DNA of 64,000 bases from a virus. Below, piece after piece: positions 15,241-64,000 of the stretch (the stretch's first letter is position 1; each line of letters begins with the position of its first letter). The position numbers and the translations under genes are program-made. A model generated the notes under the pieces. The model was not told the origin of the DNA and searched no databases. It saw nothing but the letters and a program-made list of their open reading frames with translations. Where the stretch lies: IMG/VR virus record IMGVR_UViG_3300013126_000010, positions 64,001-128,000 of that record; one strand, 5' to 3'.

Positions 15241-15807
15241 TTACCACTCTATTGGATTTAAAAAACCTAGTAAATGAAGACCGGATGACTTGGTAAAATC
15301 AAAACTTCGTATTTTTCTATATATACCATCACCATTGCGATCTGCTTCTGCTGATATAGCTTTACCAGGAGAAGTATTTGCTTCTAATGTCGCCATTGAT
15401 TTACCATCACATGCGACGACAATTCCAGCATGACCGTTAGATGTTGACCCTTTTTGCATAAAAAATATAGATCCTGGAATTGGATCTTTTGTAATTAATC
15501 CTTTACATGCATTATAACTGGTCATTACACTTGGGTTTAGTTTTTTACCAAAATTAGATAATACTTCAGATGGTGCATTTAAATTAGAATATGCCAATCT
15601 CCAAATAGTCTCGGAAAATGCCATACAATATGGCCATCCTGGTTGCCATCCTGATTTTTTCATTTCAGCTTCCAATAATGCACTTTCTTCTTTTCCACTA
15701 TTTGGGTCCAGTATTGACCTCCATGCAGCATTGTCTTTTATTTCAAATAAATTGACAAAATGTGAACCAACTTTAATTATTTCATTCCCTATTTCTTGTT
15801 TATTCAT
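15241..15807 (-). CDS. CHAP-domain peptidoglycan hydrolase
   Basis: PYCMAF (Cys), PGSIFF, NGHAGIV (His), TLEANT. Confidence 0.8.
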   Translation of the reverse strand: MNKQEIGNEIIKVGSHFVNLFEIKDNAAWRSILDPNSGKEESALLEAEMKKSGWQPGWPYCMAFSETIWRLAYSNLNAPSEVLSNFGKKLNPSVMTSYNACKGLITKDPIPGSIFFMQKGSTSNGHAGIVVACDGKSMATLEANTSPGKAISAEADRNGDGIYRKIRSFDFTKSSGLHLLGFLNPIEW

Positions 15808-16358
15808 TATTTTCTACCTCTGAATCCAGTAGGAAATCTAGAAGTATCTAATGGAAACCAAGTATCAAACCATTCTTTTGTACCGGGTTTGATGTTATTC
15901 TCTTTCACATACTCAGCATTGGCAGCAGCTTTATTATTTATATGTTCCAATGTTACCGGAGTAAATGTATTAGAACCATTACCAATACCTGCTAGTTTGG
16001 CTATGTGATTAATTTCTTCTGAAACAGAATCAGTAAGTGGGCTAGATGGGGAATCCGGTGAATTATCTTTTTCCAATTTGTCGGATTCTTGTTGATATAG
16101 TTGGTTACATATATCACTTAAATCTTCTGGAGACAATTTTTCTGGCAGTTGGTCAAGATCGTATACATCTTTGTATACATCATAGGCACGTTTAACTACT
16201 GGTACTAATAATGCCTTATTAATAGGCAAATTGTACTTGTGATGGTTTTCTATTTTTTGAACTATCGGATAGAAAACTTCTTTATAGAATGTTGTATCAT
16301 TATTGATAAACTGTAGCAAGTCATCAACAATATCAAAATCAATGTCATTTTTATGCAT
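15807..16358 (-). CDS. hypothetical late protein
   Basis: 183-aa ORF, first gene of the late operon. Confidence 0.75.
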   Translation of the reverse strand: MHKNDIDFDIVDDLLQFINNDTTFYKEVFYPIVQKIENHHKYNLPINKALLVPVVKRAYDVYKDVYDLDQLPEKLSPEDLSDICNQLYQQESDKLEKDNSPDSPSSPLTDSVSEEINHIAKLAGIGNGSNTFTPVTLEHINNKAAANAEYVKENNIKPGTKEWFDTWFPLDTSRFPTGFRGRK

Positions 16359-50265: not shown

Positions 50266-51327
50266 TTATGCTAAGTCAACATCATATCGACCTGAGTTGA
50301 TAGTATCAAGCATAATCGAAACTGGTGTAAAGTTTTCAGCTGCTAAAATACTACGTAATATACTTGGACTGTATCCACTTACCATTGCAGTTCCTGTTTG
50401 ATCAAATTTTACAGGTACATGGCCTGCATCATTCAGGTTCCAAAATATGATCGACGGCAAAGTAAATCCTGCTTTTTCATATTTTCTTTTTACCATTAGT
50501 AAAGCACAATCATATTTATTACATGCCTGATTAAATTGCATGTCAGAGCATATTAACAAATATTTTGGCATTTCTTCATCGGTCAATTTATTATCCAAAC
50601 CAACTTTCAAAATAGCATCGAATGCTGATGCCAATGATGTACTCATCCCCCATTCCATTCGGTTCAATTGATTCATTTTTTGAATCAAGTTTCCTTTCAG
50701 AACTTCAATACGAGAATTTTCAGAGAATGTCAATACAACATCTTTAAATGGTCCAGTATTTTTATCTGCACAGTATAAACCAAGTGCAATAGAAATATCT
50801 ATACAACGTAGGTTAGGATTGCCACCGACTGAACAAGTCATTGAACCAGAAACGTCTGCCATAACCAAAATATTACCACCAGTCATATAGTTAGGCAATG
50901 CTTCCCATTGTGCCAATGCAACGTCCCTATCACCAGTATTAACTGATTTTACCACATCATGAGGATAAATTGCACTAGCATTAATTTTGGTATCACCTGA
51001 TACCAATCCAGCTTTATATGCGGTATATTGTTCAGGAGCATTTTTATTAAATGCTTTTTGGTATCGTGCTGCAGCTACAGATGGTACATGTGAAAACTCA
51101 ATGGAATCCCATTGTTGGGCGCACATCAAATCCTCCACCGTTTCTGACATATCAGCAACAGTTTTTCTATACATCTTAGGTGATAGTTTGAAGAATTGTC
51201 TCAATTCTATAGCAATGTCTTTTTTAGATGATTTTTCACGAGGAAGCCATTTACAGCATGTTCCTGCAGTGTTTAATTGTTGTTTTAACAGGTTAGTAAG
51301 TTCGATTTTAGAAGTCATATTATTCAC
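50266..51327 (-). CDS. DUF2828/TROVE-vWA protein, C-terminal piece
   Basis: KWLPRE, HVPSVA, KINAS.IYPHD, vWA MIDAS DVSGSM, CSDMQFN, IIFWNL, VSGYS. Confidence 0.85.
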   Translation of the reverse strand: MNNMTSKIELTNLLKQQLNTAGTCCKWLPREKSSKKDIAIELRQFFKLSPKMYRKTVADMSETVEDLMCAQQWDSIEFSHVPSVAAARYQKAFNKNAPEQYTAYKAGLVSGDTKINASAIYPHDVVKSVNTGDRDVALAQWEALPNYMTGGNILVMADVSGSMTCSVGGNPNLRCIDISIALGLYCADKNTGPFKDVVLTFSENSRIEVLKGNLIQKMNQLNRMEWGMSTSLASAFDAILKVGLDNKLTDEEMPKYLLICSDMQFNQACNKYDCALLMVKRKYEKAGFTLPSIIFWNLNDAGHVPVKFDQTGTAMVSGYSPSILRSILAAENFTPVSIMLDTINSGRYDVDLA

Positions 51328-51357
51328 TCTGGAAAGTTATTAAAGAAAGTATACTTT

Positions 51358-51385
51358 ATTATATCAGGTATATAGAAAAAATCAA
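51358..51385 (-). promoter_or_regulatory. sigma70-like promoter for the C-terminal piece
   Basis: TTGATT-16-TATAAT with extended -10 TG. Confidence 0.55.
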
Positions 51386-51409
51386 GAAATATTTTGATAA
51401 ATAATAGAT

Positions 51410-51439
51410 GTAGATCGCGATATGGGGATATCCATCTAC
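51410..51439 (+). promoter_or_regulatory. structured leader upstream of Seg-type endonuclease 2
   Basis: GTAGAT-CGC-GATAT gggg ATATC-C-ATCTAC, preceded by ATAAATA. Confidence 0.6.
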
Positions 51440-51466
51440 TTTAACAGTCATTAGGAGACTATCAAC

Positions 51467-52399
51467 ATGAATATTTATTCAAACTTTAAACCAACATATT
51501 TATATATCAAAACACACAACGTTACTGGCCTTCAGTATTTTGGTAAAACAATAAATGATCCATTTAAATATAAAGGTTCTGGTAAACGCTGGTTAAATCA
51601 TTTAAAAATTCATGGAAATAATGTCACTACTTCAGTAATTGGTTATTACACTGATGTTAATTCCTGTATCGATGTTGCTATTAAATTTAGTGCAGAACAT
51701 AATATAGTAGAATCAACTGCATGGGCAAATATTATACCAGAAAATGGAATTAATGGTGGTGGAACTGCATCACAACTGCACACTGTTCCTGTAAGAGAAC
51801 AGGCTGCATTAACATGTTTAGCAAGATATGGTAAAGAACACCCCTCATTAGTTCCATCGATAAAATTAAAAGCCAAGGTCACTCATATACAAAGATATGG
51901 TGACCTTGGGTGTAATTTAAATTCATCCAACTCCATCGCAAAACGGAATAAAACGAATTTAATTAAATACGGTAATGCATGTGCCGCCAACAAAGATGGT
52001 AATAAATCATCAATAATTGCACAGAGAACATTAAGATCTAGACCAGTCATTTTGGAACTAAAATTTCATGCATATAAAAGAAAAATATCACTACCATCTA
52101 ATTGGGTGTATAAGGACGACGACTGGCTGAATAACACATTATCTACCATATTAAAACTACCTGTATATGCTCCTGATATTAGTATGTACAATAATAGTCA
52201 ATTATCTAGATATAACAAGTTAAATAGACCACAAGTAATCAGATTATTAGAAATATCAAATTTATTGGATATAAAATTAGGTAAAAACTGGTTTCAACAA
52301 TCTGATTATTATATTTCTAACCTTCTTGACGAAGTTTTAATAACAATTTCTGACAGTCATCTTCCGACATCTCTTCAATTTTTGAAAGATATAATTTAG
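51467..52399 (+). mobile_element. Seg-like homing endonuclease inserted antisense within the DUF2828 gene
   Basis: YLYIKTHNVTGLQYFGKT...YKGSG; same N-terminal domain as the 44609 ORF. Confidence 0.8.
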
Positions 52400-52808
52400 C
52401 TTGTATTCCAGCATCCAATGCTTCTTTGATCAATCCATAAGCTTGATCTTTAAAATGTTTGGTAGTGAAAATTAACAAATCATCAAATCTACCATATTCT
52501 GGAACATATGGAATTACTTTTTCCAGCATTTCTGGATGGTTTGTTTCCATATATTGCAGAATATCACGGAAGATTTTACGTTCACCTGCACCACCACGAA
52601 CATCACGTGCCCATAATGCCACCTTGATGGCTAATTCTTTATCTTCTTGAAATGCTCGTTCGAATTGTGGGGTAATATCTTTTCCACGTGATGCGCCTAT
52701 TGCGAAAAACAAATTTACCAAGTTGTCACAAGAAGTTGTGTAAGCTACCATACCATTTGCGGTAGTGGTTTCGAATTGGGTGTTTTGTACTGCTGTTGAA
52801 AAGCTCAT
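52317..52808 (-). CDS. DUF2828/TROVE-like protein, N-terminal piece
   Basis: TANGMVAY, LFFAIGASRG, WARDVRGGAGER, EYGRFDDL. Confidence 0.85.
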   Translation of the reverse strand: MSFSTAVQNTQFETTTANGMVAYTTSCDNLVNLFFAIGASRGKDITPQFERAFQEDKELAIKVALWARDVRGGAGERKIFRDILQYMETNHPEMLEKVIPYVPEYGRFDDLLIFTTKHFKDQAYGLIKEALDAGIQAKLYLSKIEEMSEDDCQKLLLKLRQEG

Positions 52809-52819
52809 GTTTCACCTAT

Positions 52820-52859
52820 CAGGTTAATGTTAATTTTAAGTTGTTGCTGTATATAACCT
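52820..52859 (-). ncRNA. AGG-ACAGCAA-CCUG family element 1 (leader of the DUF2828 gene)
   Basis: AGGUUAUAU ACAGCAA ... UUAACCUG directly before RBS AGGUGA. Confidence 0.6.
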
Positions 52860-59413: not shown

Positions 59414-59446
59414 TCTAGTAGCACTACGGTATGTTAAAGTATTTTG

Positions 59447-59518
59447 CTCCCCCATCTCGATTCGAACGAGACTCACGATGCTTAACAGGCATGCCGCACA
59501 CCTAGTGCGTTCAGGGGA
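59447..59518 (-). tRNA. tRNA-Asn(GUU), CCA not encoded
   Basis: UCCCCUG/UGGGGGA-G; CU GUU AA loop; UCUCG-UUCGAAU-CGAGA T arm. Confidence 0.8.
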
Positions 59519-60309: not shown

Positions 60310-60790
60310 GGATACACTGGGTTTTTACCAATAACACTTGGTCAGTATGTGCATAACATCCCGAATAATCTAGTTTAGGGAACCACCCCGTCACGTTGAT
60401 TACCGATAAGCAGGAATCGTTCACCTGCATCGTATCCCGATAATAGTTCTATATAATTTGGTGGATTGTTTTTTCGTTACTGTATAAGTACAATCCACCT
60501 AAAACTTATTTGCTATTACTTATGCAGTAATAGCAAATCCAGCATAAACGTCATCGTTTGCGTTTAATTTTTTGATTTTTACATCTTTCTCGATGATTCT
60601 AAATTATTCTTTCTCAACCACGTCGAAAACCTTTCATCCCCATAATAAGAGCATTGTTGCTATAATTAGGATTGGGTTCAGGTGTTATCGCTAACAAGGG
60701 AGTTCAATGCCCTTATTGTGGAGATGGGCGTATCGAAACGCCGTCCGCAATTTTTACTTAAATAATCTTTCAGCCATTTCTAGCAACGAA
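60310..60790 (-). ncRNA. ssrA: circularly permuted (two-piece) tmRNA; outer boundaries approximate
   Basis: Acceptor piece GGAC-GGCGU UUCGAU ACGCC-CAUCUCC-A (about 60790-60719) precedes coding piece GGGGAUG AAAGGUUUUCGAC (from 60641); G3.U70; tag ANDDVYAGFAITA* at 60561-60520. Confidence 0.88.
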
Positions 60791-63611: not shown

Positions 63612-63820
63612 TATACTAACTCACTTAATTTGTCAACAGCTGATTCAATATTGTCAATGGCTTCATCACAATTATTTAAATGATCTTTAACTTCATATAA
63701 CAATTCACGCAATTTATCACGTTCTTTTGACAATGATTCTTTGTGTTTTGTCAATTCTTTGATAGCTTTATCGATATTGTTTGTTTTTTTCATAATTATA
63801 TACAGGTTGATGTTTTTCAC
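63611..63820 (-). CDS. small coiled-coil protein
   Basis: 69-aa ORF. Confidence 0.6.
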   Translation of the reverse strand: MKNINLYIIMKKTNNIDKAIKELTKHKESLSKERDKLRELLYEVKDHLNNCDEAIDNIESAVDKLSELV

Positions 63821-63824
63821 ATTT

Positions 63825-63857
63825 CAGGTATGATTGTTTATTTGCGGTAATCAACCT
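63825..63857 (-). ncRNA. family element 5 (minimal stem-loop)
   Basis: AGGUUGAUU ACCGCAA AUAAAC AAUCAUACCUG. Confidence 0.6.
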
Positions 63858-63864
63858 AAATTAG

Positions 63865-63988
63865 CAGGATAGTTTTTATACGTTGCTCTACCAGTCTGAG
63901 CTAACTTCTCCATAGTATTTGGGAGAAGTATGGGATTTGAACCCATGACCAACGGCTTAACAGGCTATTTAATTGCTGTAACTATCCT
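63865..63988 (-). ncRNA. family element 6: circularly permuted tRNA inside the closing stem (YrlA-like topology)
   Basis: AGGAUAGUU/AACUAUCCU 9 bp; order CUGUUAA loop, T arm AUGGG-UUCAAAU-CCCAU, acceptor ACUUCUCC-loop-GGAGAAGU, D arm GCUC-AGACUGGUA-GAGC. Confidence 0.8.
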
Positions 63989-64000
63989 AATTCATAATTT

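What the first reader, a model, noticed from the sequence alone, without database searches (positions are those of the whole stretch)
63865..63988. Circularly permuted tRNA that still retains an Asn anticodon loop
Seen: closing stem, then GC-CUGUUAA-GCCGUU-GGUC, T arm, an 8-bp acceptor closed by a 10-nt loop, D arm, AACG and the closing stem. This is a tRNA 3' half followed by its 5' half. The GCCUGUUAAGC segment is identical to that of tRNA-Asn at 59447. Established: YrlA has T-acceptor-D order with the anticodon arm replaced by the Ro-binding stem. Inference: an evolutionary intermediate from tRNA to Y-like RNA that could display a cleavable GUU anticodon as bait, or be circularised and re-cut into a tRNA as in permuted tRNA genes of red algae and archaea.
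Basis: partly seen in the sequence, partly recalled or inferred. Interest (0 to 1): 0.85.

Follow-up and report, generated by a model that had tools for sequence, protein, structure and literature searches.

The report
Permuted tRNA-Asn inside phage Y-like RNA
This 125-base phage RNA gene is a complete asparagine tRNA turned inside out and closed by the conserved "handle" that travels with a Ro60-like ring protein, so it is most likely a tRNA-shaped partner RNA of that protein rather than a working tRNA gene.

Summary
On the minus strand of window 63865-63989 lie, in order: a 10-bp closing stem, an ACAGCAA motif, a GC-CUGUUAA-GC hairpin, a T arm, an 8-bp closed acceptor, a D arm, AACG and the closing stem. 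Rejoined at position 29/30, ARAGORN calls it a perfect tRNA-Asn(GUU).

It is not an isolated oddity. It is one of at least 12 "stem + (A/U)CAGCAA" RNAs in this 185-kb jumbo-phage record. It has dozens of relatives in other phage contigs.

The handle type follows the protein family. DUF2828 was found in 14 of 21 records with ACAGCA handles, and TROVE in none. TROVE/Ro60 was found in all 12 records with other handles, and DUF2828 in none. A DUF2828 model folds like Ro60.

The small anticodon-like hairpin is kept in 28 of 33 distinct relatives, with compensatory pair changes. U33, a purine at 37 and A38 are conserved, but 15 different "anticodon" triplets occur. The frame is therefore selected, and Asn identity probably is not.

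Best reading: a YrlA-like Y RNA of a Ro60 paralogue, carrying a whole-tRNA mimic. No BHB motif or RNA ligase supports maturation into a tRNA. The bait idea is open.

This scan has already reported the handle family in at least 32 other genomes.

The parts
63980..63989 (-). 5' strand of the closing (handle) stem, UAGGAUAGUU
   Evidence: Pairs 10/10 with 63865-63874. The stem sequence differs between family members but still pairs.
63973..63979 (-). Handle motif ACAGCAA, unpaired, directly after the stem
   Evidence: Shared by at least 12 minus-strand RNAs of this genome and by relatives in viral contigs. Records with this motif hold DUF2828 and never TROVE.
63966..63972 (-). A/U-rich linker UUAAAUA
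   Evidence: Variable in length and A/U-rich in relatives.
63955..63965 (-). Anticodon-like mini hairpin GC-CUGUUAA-GC (tRNA positions 30-40; GUU at 63959-63961)
   Evidence: Identical to the 11-mer in tRNA-Asn at 59446-59518. The hairpin forms in 28 of 33 distinct relatives, with U33, R37 and A38 conserved.
63951..63954 (-). CGUU: 3' strand of the proximal anticodon stem (41-43) plus U44
   Evidence: Pairs with AACG at 63881-63884. Covaries in relatives: CCG:CGG in L235 and CGU:ACG in L240.
63947..63950 (-). Rest of the 5-nt variable loop (U)GGUC, ending in C48
   Evidence: NGGUC is kept in relatives. C48 can form the Levitt pair with G15 (sequence).
63930..63946 (-). T arm AUGGG-UUCAAAU-CCCAU
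63904..63929 (-). Closed acceptor: ACUUCUCC, 10-nt loop CAAAUACUAU, GGAGAAGU (7 bp plus G-1:C73)
   Evidence: Relatives have 5-10 bp, one has 17 bp, and their loops are 0-21 nt.
63885..63903 (-). U8 A9 and D arm GCUC-AGACUGGUA-GAGC
63881..63884 (-). A26 and ACG (27-29): 5' strand of the proximal anticodon stem. The break point 29/30 follows.
63875..63880 (-). A-rich 3' linker UAUAAA
   Evidence: UAAAA-type linker in relatives.
63865..63874 (-). 3' strand of the closing stem AACUAUCCUG, followed by CUAAUUU
   Evidence: The ...CCUG(U/C)UAA tail recurs in relatives.
63803..63858 (-). Second, 56-nt handle RNA directly downstream (UAGGUUGAU-UACCGCAA ... AUCAACCUG) with a 5-bp/7-nt hairpin cargo
   Evidence: Its cargo hairpin covaries with the copy at genome 144159-144215.
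52825..52857 (-). Cargo-less handle RNA just upstream of the DUF2828 gene, behind a TTGACA-17-TATAAT promoter
50266..52808 (-). Candidate protein partner: DUF2828 (Ro60-like) gene in two abutting ORFs (52317-52808 and 50266-51327), split by about 1 kb carrying a plus-strand ORF
   Evidence: Pfam PF11443. The pieces align end to end with an intact 479-aa relative. A model of that relative matches Ro60 structures over its full length.
59446..59518 (-). The phage's linear tRNA-Asn(GUU), which shares the 11-mer GCCUGUUAAGC
   Evidence: ARAGORN and sequence. It is not reported by Rfam tRNA at gathering.

Best explanation
The element is a small non-coding RNA of the Y-RNA kind. A 10-bp stem plus an unpaired ACAGCAA motif (the 'handle') most likely docks the phage's Ro60-like ring protein (DUF2828). 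The handle presents a cargo that is a near-perfect, circularly permuted tRNA-Asn: T arm, closed acceptor, D arm, 5-nt variable loop and a nicked 5-bp anticodon stem with a 7-nt loop.

Shown here:
- the architecture of the element;
- its membership of a multi-copy handle family;
- the strict pairing of handle type with protein family;
- the Ro60-like fold of DUF2828;
- conservation of the anticodon-loop frame.

Inferred:
- The RNA binds DUF2828 through the handle.
- The tRNA-shaped cargo docks a host or phage tRNA-binding factor (a processing, modification, repair or cleavage enzyme) onto the ring, or titrates it, as proposed for YrlA.
- The 7-bp-plus acceptor may be nicked by RNase P, as in M. 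smegmatis YrlA. This would give a two-piece particle, not a free tRNA.
- The Asn triplet itself is probably inherited from a tRNA-Asn-type ancestor, not required.
For: Architecture and tRNA quality:
- ARAGORN calls tRNA-Asn after un-permuting and nothing in the native order.
- full-length YrlA match, 39 bits, E 2e-7.

Family:
- At least 12 handle RNAs lie on the same strand of this genome. Their cargo ranges from none to whole permuted tRNAs, and one sits just upstream of the DUF2828 gene.
- Relatives with the same layout occur in viral contigs, among tRNA arrays.

Partner:
- DUF2828 was found in 14 of 21 records with ACAGCA-handle elements, and TROVE in 0 of 21.
- TROVE was found in 12 of 12 records with other handles, and DUF2828 in 0 of 12.
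- The genes lie within a few kb in L055, L057, L099, L109, L121, L122 and KP13-16.
- The top 13 PDB fold matches of a DUF2828 model are all Ro60 proteins over the full length (E 2.6e-8 to 5e-4, TM up to 0.55).
- The best sequence match in PDB is phage phiLo Ro60.

Anticodon-like hairpin:
- It forms in 28 of 33 distinct elements (shuffle mean 13.2, maximum 21 in 5000 shuffles).
- Pair 30:40 is seen as G:C, C:G, A:U and G:U. Pair 31:39 is seen as C:G and A:U.
- U33 is present in 27 of 28, A38 in 28 of 28, and a purine at 37 in 28 of 28.

Precedents:
- YrlA binds Rsr and mimics tRNA, and M. smegmatis YrlA is cut by RNase P and gains CCA in vivo (PMC4201824).
- Phage Ro60 binds adjacent Y-like RNAs (PMC12135203).
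Against: - No expression or binding data exist.
- The DUF2828 gene is 11 kb away and split in two ORFs by a 1-kb insertion.
- Two viral records rated 100% complete (G015, G018) have ACAGCAA-handle permuted elements but no detectable DUF2828 or TROVE.
- The Rfam YrlA score is below gathering (39 against 69), and the Ro60-type GNCGAA motif is absent.
- There is no strong promoter directly upstream, only a weak TTTGTA-16-TAGAAT. Other cassettes have TTGCAC-17-TGCTATAAT.
- The thermodynamic MFE fold pairs ACAGC with GcCUGU instead of forming the mini hairpin (-34.2 against -30.2 kcal/mol). That pairing is not conserved in relatives.
Confidence: 0.7

Rival explanations
1. Bait or decoy. The handle-bound particle displays an authentic tRNA-Asn anticodon stem-loop so that a host anticodon nuclease, or another anticodon-loop enzyme, acts on the mimic and not on real tRNA. 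The Ro-like ring then holds or disposes of the product. This is a specific version of the best explanation, not its opposite.
For: - The 11-mer equals a genuine tRNA-Asn stem-loop, including the phage's own.
- The loop frame that anticodon-loop enzymes read (7 nt, U33, R37, A38) is conserved, while positions 34-36 differ between phages (15 triplets), as expected if targets differ by host.
- The same genome has other handle RNAs carrying whole or bare anticodon-type hairpins: Thr CGU at genome 145513-145625 and Arg UCU-like at 143704-143763.
Against: - No nuclease target is known for this host.
- Thirteen of 28 loops have A32, and those 11-mers never occur in 1423 genuine phage tRNAs. Only 7 of 23 mimic 11-mers occur in real tRNAs, no better than when triplets are shuffled among mimics (mean 5.5; 451 of 2000 shuffles reach 7).
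- Among close pairs, the triplet changes about as fast as the variable loop (4/24 against 6/40). This fits drift as well as an arms race.
Confidence: 0.15
2. Two-piece working tRNA. RNase P and 3' trimming open the acceptor loop and CCA is added. The two halves, held together by the acceptor, inner stem and handle, are charged with asparagine and used in translation.
For: - The un-permuted sequence is a flawless tRNA-Asn.
- The acceptor is 7 bp plus G-1:C73 with a 10-nt loop, and M. smegmatis YrlA with a 7-bp acceptor is cut by RNase P and gains CCA in vivo (PMC4201824).
- Some relatives encode N73-CCA in the acceptor loop: L095, L113, L109 and L240.
- The phage's linear tRNA-Asn is atypical: ARAGORN calls it, but Rfam tRNA at gathering does not.
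Against: - Most relatives close the acceptor with 0-6-nt loops and lack CCA (3 of 29).
- The discriminator here is C, paired with G-1.
- A 10-bp helix projecting from the anticodon stem at 29/30 is unlikely to fit the ribosome (inference).
- The triplet is not conserved.
- No CCA-adding enzyme was found in the record.
Confidence: 0.06
3. True permuted tRNA gene. The transcript is cut at both sides of the 29/30 junction and circularised, then opened at the acceptor to give a normal linear tRNA-Asn, as in Cyanidioschyzon merolae.
For: The gene order is 3' half then 5' half, with an intervening acceptor loop, and the un-permuted sequence passes ARAGORN.
Against: - There is no bulge-helix-bulge at the junction: only AUA:UAU next to an asymmetric internal loop (inspection). 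Adding that helix costs energy.
- No splicing endonuclease is known in bacteria or phages (established knowledge).
- No RtcB, Rnl1 or Rnl2 was found in the 185 kb.
- The supposed leader and trailer are a conserved motif shared with cargo-less RNAs and tied to a protein family.
Confidence: 0.03
4. Decaying remnant of two tandem tRNA genes, with no function.
For: - The closest BLAST matches in T2-like phages span the 3' half of tRNA-Asn and the 5' half of the next tRNA.
- A dimeric-tRNA origin has been proposed for YrlA (Sim and Wolin 2018, cited in 10.1101/312249).
Against: - The two acceptor strands are perfectly complementary (8/8) and every stem is intact.
- A 10-bp closing stem with the family motif encloses the element.
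- The layout is conserved, with covariation, across many unrelated contigs.
Confidence: 0.03

Closest known systems
YrlA-type bacterial and phage Y RNAs with Ro60/Rsr (Rfam RF02553; Chen et al. 2014, PMC4201824; structure 10.1101/312249)
   Same: - The 5' and 3' ends pair into a protein-binding stem.
- The cargo is T arm, closed acceptor and D arm in that order, with the tRNA tertiary-contact residues kept.
- The RNA is encoded on the same strand as a Ro60-fold protein, with a second smaller Y-like RNA beside it (as YrlB is).
- There is a full-length Rfam match.
   Different: - The score is 39 bits against a gathering score of 69.
- The handle motif is ACAGCAA, not GNCGAA.
- The partner family is DUF2828, not TROVE, and its gene is 11 kb away, not within 4 kb.
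- A 7-nt anticodon-type loop on a nicked 5-bp stem is present, whereas S. Typhimurium YrlA 'lacks the anticodon loop'. Chen et al. drew a 'less-conserved' hairpin 5' of the T arm as a variable arm.
Circularly permuted tRNA genes of Cyanidioschyzon merolae and split or permuted tRNAs of archaea (recalled from the literature, not read here)
   Same: The 3' half lies upstream of the 5' half, joined through the acceptor ends. The rejoined sequence is a canonical tRNA.
   Different: There is no BHB motif, no splicing endonuclease or ligase in view, and the setting is a phage of bacteria. The flanks are a conserved handle and not a disposable leader and trailer.
Thermus phage phiLo Ro60 with Yrl1/Yrl2 (PMC12135203)
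   Same: A phage-encoded Ro60-fold protein with small stem-bulge-stem RNAs from its own genome. It is the best structural and sequence match of DUF2828.
   Different: The phiLo RNAs use a CGAA motif and have no tRNA-like cargo in that paper. The protein is a TROVE family member.
Dictyostelid Class I RNAs (Rfam RF01414; PMC7919456)
   Same: A short terminal stem, an unpaired ...UUACAGCAA motif right after the 5' strand, a variable middle, and a 3' end ...CUGU. Cargo-less members of this genome score up to 32.1 bits, E 2.8e-5.
   Different: The score is below gathering (41.5). The Class I RNAs are eukaryotic, have no tRNA cargo, and their known binder is an RRM protein. Homology was not tested further here.

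Membership tests
YrlA (Rfam RF02553) | Score at or above the curated gathering threshold (69 bits) | tested here: not met
   39 bits, E 2.3e-7, model positions 1-114. Relatives score 34-59 bits.
YrlA (Rfam RF02553) | T arm, closed acceptor-like stem and D arm in that order, enclosed by a terminal stem, with tRNA elbow residues | tested here: met
YrlA (Rfam RF02553) | GNCGAAN0-1G Ro60-binding motif near the 5' end (Chen et al. 2014) | tested here: not met
   There is no CGAA in the element. ACAGCAA occupies that place.
YrlA (Rfam RF02553) | Encoded within about 4 kb of a TROVE-domain Ro60 gene on the same strand | tested here: not met
   No TROVE in the 185 kb. A DUF2828 gene lies on the same strand 11 kb away.
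YrlA (Rfam RF02553) | Binding to the Ro60 orthologue | not testable with these tools
   Needs immunoprecipitation or a gel-shift assay.
ACAGCAA-handle RNAs linked to DUF2828 (uncatalogued family) | Covarying terminal stem of 7-10 bp, directly followed by unpaired (A/U)(A/U)CAGCA(A/U), an A-rich 3' linker, and a ...CCUG end | tested here: met
ACAGCAA-handle RNAs linked to DUF2828 (uncatalogued family) | A DUF2828 protein encoded in the same genome | tested here: met
   Across records: 14 of 21 against 0 of 12.
Circularly permuted tRNA gene (C. merolae type) | 3' half upstream of 5' half; the rejoined sequence is a canonical tRNA | tested here: met
   ARAGORN calls tRNA-Asn(gtt) after rejoining at 29/30.
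Circularly permuted tRNA gene (C. merolae type) | Bulge-helix-bulge motif formed by leader and trailer at the junction | tested here: not met
   Inspection of 63966-63972 and 63875-63880 shows only a 3-bp AUA:UAU next to an asymmetric loop. That helix is unfavourable.
Circularly permuted tRNA gene (C. merolae type) | Splicing endonuclease and RNA ligase available | tested here: inconclusive
   No RtcB, Rnl1 or Rnl2 in the record. The record is only about 52% complete, the Rnl1 search had no positive control, and the host is unknown.
Functional tRNA-Asn | Free 5' end and 3' CCA end; G73 discriminator | tested here: not met
   The acceptor is closed by a 10-nt loop. Position 73 is C, paired with G-1. 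CCA follows the 7th pair directly, without a discriminator.

The most novel reading that the evidence does not exclude
Phage Ro60-paralogue particles use interchangeable tRNA-shaped cargo, here a whole tRNA-Asn with a displayed anticodon loop, as decoys or sensors for host enzymes that cut or modify anticodon loops. The variable 34-36 triplet would record which host tRNA-targeting defence each phage faces. The same handle (stem + UUACAGCAA ... CUGU) may be what dictyostelid Class I RNAs are. That would give those orphan RNAs a Ro-like partner.
Probability: 0.12. Interest if true: 0.85.

Novelty: new variant of a known kind. Interest (0 to 1): 0.6.

Why it matters
The purpose of the tRNA-like domain of bacterial Y RNAs is an open question. 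This element, and the relatives found here, show two things. In many phages the mimic extends to a complete anticodon arm. The same cargo is mounted on two different handles that follow two Ro60-fold protein families.

That gives concrete reagents: a 125-nt RNA, a defined handle and a defined loop. With them one can ask what binds the cargo, and whether anticodon-loop enzymes or nucleases are involved.

The result also warns annotators. Such loci are neither tRNA genes nor tRNA pseudogenes, and the curated Rfam YrlA threshold misses them.

Tried and rejected
1. Assembly or edge artefact: rejected. The contig continues beyond the window and the layout recurs elsewhere.

2. Pairing between the ACAGCA motif and the loop, as in the MFE fold. 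Duplex energies in 21 relatives are no better than with shuffled loops (-2.48 against -2.38 kcal/mol). It is not a conserved feature.

3. Whether the mimic stem-loops are exact copies of real tRNA stem-loops. Seven of 23 11-mers occur in 1423 genuine phage tRNAs. Random triplets give 2.5, but triplets shuffled among mimics give 5.5. The result is inconclusive. Same-anticodon tRNAs lie in the same locus in only 6 of 17 loci that hold at least 5 tRNAs.

4. Faster or slower change of the triplet among close pairs. It changes at 4/24 sites, against 6/40 in the variable loop. The sample is too small and shows no signal.

5. N73-CCA in acceptor loops as a general feature: only 3 of 29.

6. A group I intron in the split DUF2828 gene: no Rfam match.

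7. Dicty Class I model on other phage loci: nothing at E <= 0.01 in a 63-kb search. Only the own-genome hits remain.

8. The MAFFT alignment mis-aligns the 3' handle strand. I therefore did not build a covariance model or run the count of structure pairs. Pair statistics come from fixed-register extraction in scripts.

9. The consensus promoter scan found no minus-strand promoter upstream.

Full report
THE OBSERVATION

Read on the minus strand, window 63989-63865 is a 125-nt unit. In order it contains:
- a 10-bp terminal stem, UAGGAUAGUU paired with AACUAUCCUG;
- an unpaired ACAGCAA followed by an A/U linker;
- a 2-bp hairpin with a 7-nt loop, GC-CUGUUAA-GC;
- CGUU, which pairs with AACG near the 3' end;
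- GGUC;
- a canonical T arm;
- an 8-bp acceptor helix closed by a 10-nt loop;
- UA;
- a canonical D arm;
- AACG, UAUAAA and the stem.

ARAGORN sees no tRNA here in the native order. When I placed residues 1-29 before residues 30-73 in a script, it called a 75-nt tRNA-Asn(gtt) in which all four stems are fully Watson-Crick. The break is therefore inside the anticodon stem, between positions 29 and 30. The 11-mer GCCUGUUAAGC is indeed identical to that of the ARAGORN tRNA-Asn at 59446-59518. The window is bases 64001-128000 of a 184.7-kb IMG/VR virus record rated about 52% complete. The element is not at a contig end.

WHAT IT BELONGS TO

Rfam's YrlA model (Y RNA-like A) aligns over its full length at 39 bits, E 2e-7 for the 301 bases searched. 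That is below the curated 69 bits.

A scan of the whole record for 'stem + [A/U]CAGCAA' found at least 12 minus-strand units with the same frame: (U)AGG-N5-7, then (A/U)(A/U)CAGCAA, then A/U-rich sequence, cargo, an A-rich linker and N5-7-CCUG. Their cargo differs:
- One has nothing. This 33-nt unit sits just upstream of the DUF2828 gene, behind a TTGACA-17-TATAAT promoter.
- Some have a single 4-5-bp hairpin with a 6-7-nt loop. One of these is the 56-nt unit directly downstream of ours, at 63803-63858.
- Some have a tRNA elbow.
- Three have rearranged tRNAs. Ours is broken at 29/30. A Thr(CGU)-like one keeps a full 5-bp anticodon arm (genome 145513-145625). A Leu-like one is interrupted in the anticodon loop (genome 135521-135668).

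The stems differ in sequence but always pair.

RELATIVES ELSEWHERE

BLAST against GenBank phages found unannotated look-alikes in several places:
- Vibrio phages phiKT1024, Va1 and phiTY18.
- Vibrio phage BONAISHI, with two copies directly upstream of a TROVE + vWA_Ro60 protein.
- Klebsiella phage KP13-16, with an array of handle RNAs directly after a DUF2828 + DUF7788 protein.

The T2-type hits are simply the 3' half of tRNA-Asn followed by the 5' half of the next tRNA gene. [quoted passage not shown]

Two pattern scans of IMG/VR returned over a hundred stretches each. One pattern was T loop to D arm + AACG. The other was ACAGCA to T loop. After filtering for a closed acceptor and a closing stem, 33 distinct permuted elements remained. 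They sit among tRNA gene arrays and all score below the Rfam YrlA threshold, at 34-49 bits.

THE PROTEIN PARTNER

I searched the full records behind these loci for DUF2828 (PF11443) and TROVE (PF05731). The partition is clean:
- DUF2828 was found in 14 of 21 records with ACAGCA-type handles (11 above the curated cut-off), and TROVE in none.
- TROVE was found in all 12 records with other handles (mostly GGUUACUUC-type, plus phiKT1024 and BONAISHI), and DUF2828 in none.

Five of the seven ACAGCA-type records without DUF2828 are fragments rated 2-14% complete. Two (G015, G018) are rated complete and remain unexplained.

An AlphaFold model of an intact 479-aa DUF2828 protein from L121 (pLDDT 71) was searched against the PDB. 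Its 13 best matches are all Ro60 proteins over the full length: phage phiLo, Deinococcus Rsr, Xenopus and human (E 2.6e-8 to 5e-4). The best sequence-profile hit in the PDB is also phiLo Ro60. DUF2828 is thus a Ro60-fold protein.

In this phage the gene lies 11 kb from our element on the same strand. It is split into two abutting ORFs by about 1 kb that carries an opposite-strand ORF. Rfam sees no group I intron there.

THE ANTICODON-LIKE HAIRPIN

Published work states that S. Typhimurium YrlA lacks the anticodon loop (10.1101/312249). Chen et al. 2014 described a 'less-conserved' hairpin 5' of the T arm and drew it as a variable arm (PMC4201824).

In the elements collected here, the hairpin sits 5' of the CGU strand that pairs with ACG after the D arm. 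A separate 5-nt variable loop (NGGUC, ending in C48) follows it. By position the hairpin is residues 30-40 of a tRNA.

One search gives these counts:
- Both pairs form in 28 of 33 distinct elements (shuffled partners: mean 13.2, maximum 21 in 5000).
- Pair 30:40 occurs as G:C, C:G, A:U and G:U. Pair 31:39 occurs as C:G and A:U.
- The inner stem also covaries: ACG:CGU, CCG:CGG, CGU:ACG.
- Within the loop, U33 is present in 27 of 28, A38 in 28 of 28, and a purine at 37 in 28 of 28.
- Every G36 is followed by G37 (8/8), and every other residue at 36 is followed by A37 (20/20).
- Positions 34-36 take 15 different values.

The feature occurs under both handle types. So the frame of an anticodon loop is conserved and the 'anticodon' is not.

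I tried to decide whether the triplet is under special selection, and could not:
- Only 7 of 23 mimic 11-mers occur in 1423 genuine phage tRNAs. This is no better than when triplets are shuffled among mimics.
- Close pairs differ in the triplet about as often as in the variable loop.

Genuine phage tRNA-Asn genes commonly read ...UAGCUCAG..GGUAGAGC-A-ACGGC-CUGUUAA-GCCGU-NGGUC.... The body of this sub-family therefore looks Asn-derived (or Asn/Thr/Lys-type). Our element keeps what is probably the ancestral loop.

HOW IT MOST LIKELY WORKS

The evidence fits a Y-RNA-type particle:
- The handle docks the Ro60-like protein. This is inferred from co-occurrence, fold and the YrlA/Rsr and phiLo precedents.
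- The cargo offers a tRNA-shaped surface, here a complete one, to some tRNA-binding factor. This is inferred.

The acceptor has 7 bp plus a G-1:C73 pair and a 10-nt loop. M. smegmatis YrlA, with a 7-bp acceptor, is cut by RNase P and gains CCA in vivo (PMC4201824). Nicking into a two-piece particle is therefore plausible here, but it is not general: most relatives have 0-6-nt acceptor loops, and only 3 of 29 encode N73-CCA.

The nearest-neighbour MFE fold differs from the tRNA-like fold by 4 kcal/mol, because it pairs ACAGC with GcCUGU. That pairing is not conserved.

RIVALS

- A true permuted tRNA gene matured through a circle lacks a BHB motif and any ligase in the record. It also cannot explain cargo-less handle RNAs.
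- A charged two-piece tRNA is not excluded for this copy, but it is unlikely as the family's function.
- A decoy for anticodon-loop nucleases or modifiers is compatible with everything seen and is the most interesting open reading. Nothing here tests it.
- A dead tandem-tRNA remnant is contradicted by the perfect stems and the wide conservation.

NOVELTY

YrlA-type RNAs in bacteria and in 22 TROVE-encoding phages are published (PMC4201824). I found no paper on DUF2828 as a Ro60 relative or on ACAGCAA-handle RNAs: the five 'DUF2828' hits are unrelated. Rfam has no family that reaches threshold.

Earlier reports of this same scan describe the handle family in at least 32 other genomes and on this genome. 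My results agree with them and were obtained independently.

This report adds four things:
- the proof that this copy is a flawless permuted tRNA-Asn;
- the two-by-two partition of handle type and protein family;
- the finding that the anticodon-loop frame is a conserved part of the cargo under both handle types;
- the negative tests on triplet selection.

I class it as a new variant of a known kind.

Noticed in passing
window 60520-60777 (-): Circularly permuted (two-piece) tmRNA gene: Rfam RF04321, 104.7 bits, E 2.4e-19, full model. This is unusual cargo for a phage.
   Followed up: no
window 50266-52808 (-), with a plus-strand ORF at 51467-52399: The DUF2828 (Ro60-like) gene is in two abutting ORFs that together align end to end with an intact 479-aa relative. 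About 1 kb carrying an opposite-strand 310-aa ORF (weak DUF7487) separates them. No group I intron was found by Rfam. Relative L099 is split at the same point.
   Followed up: partly
genome 141963-142015 and 143804-143856 (window 77963-78015 and 79804-79856, beyond the window): Cargo-less handle RNAs match Rfam Dicty_Class_I_RNA (RF01414) at 32.1 bits (E 2.8e-5) and 24.9 bits, below gathering (41.5). Class I RNAs share the same plan: stem, CCUUACAGCAA, variable part, stem, CUGU. They are described as unique to dictyostelids (PMC7919456).
   Followed up: partly
window 63803-63858 (-): A 56-nt handle RNA lies immediately downstream of the permuted tRNA. Its motif is UACCGCAA and its cargo is a 5-bp/7-nt hairpin. 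The hairpin covaries (U.G to A:U) with the copy at genome 144159-144215.
   Followed up: partly
window 59446-59518 (-): The phage's linear tRNA-Asn is called by ARAGORN but not by Rfam tRNA at gathering. Its D arm looks atypical.
   Followed up: no
L095, L113, L109, L240 (viral contigs): These relatives encode a discriminator plus CCA inside the closed acceptor loop (for example CUUCCCC-G-CCA-...-GGGGAAG). This hints that some copies are opened to a CCA end.
   Followed up: partly
genome 123656-123700, 143857-143900, 145626-145680 and others: Several cassettes are preceded by a shared promoter-like motif, (G)TTGCA(C/A/T)-N17-TGCTATAAT. The permuted tRNA-Asn has only a weak TTTGTA-16-TAGAAT and follows a 60-aa ORF.
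   Followed up: partly
L004 (phiKT1024 100240-100348), L007 (BONAISHI, two copies), L006 (KP13-16 15670-16340): GenBank phages carry unannotated YrlA-like or handle RNAs next to Ro60 or DUF2828 genes. KP13-16 has a tandem array of at least five.
   Followed up: partly
G015 and G018 (records behind L107 and L114): Two viral records rated 100% complete carry ACAGCAA-handle permuted elements but have no detectable DUF2828 or TROVE gene.
   Followed up: no
L001 2047-3261 (window 64246-65460, -): The gene upstream of the element encodes a 404-aa protein with weak periplasmic-binding-protein matches. Earlier notes call the 7-kb block between this cassette and the next a multicopper-oxidase island.
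   Followed up: no
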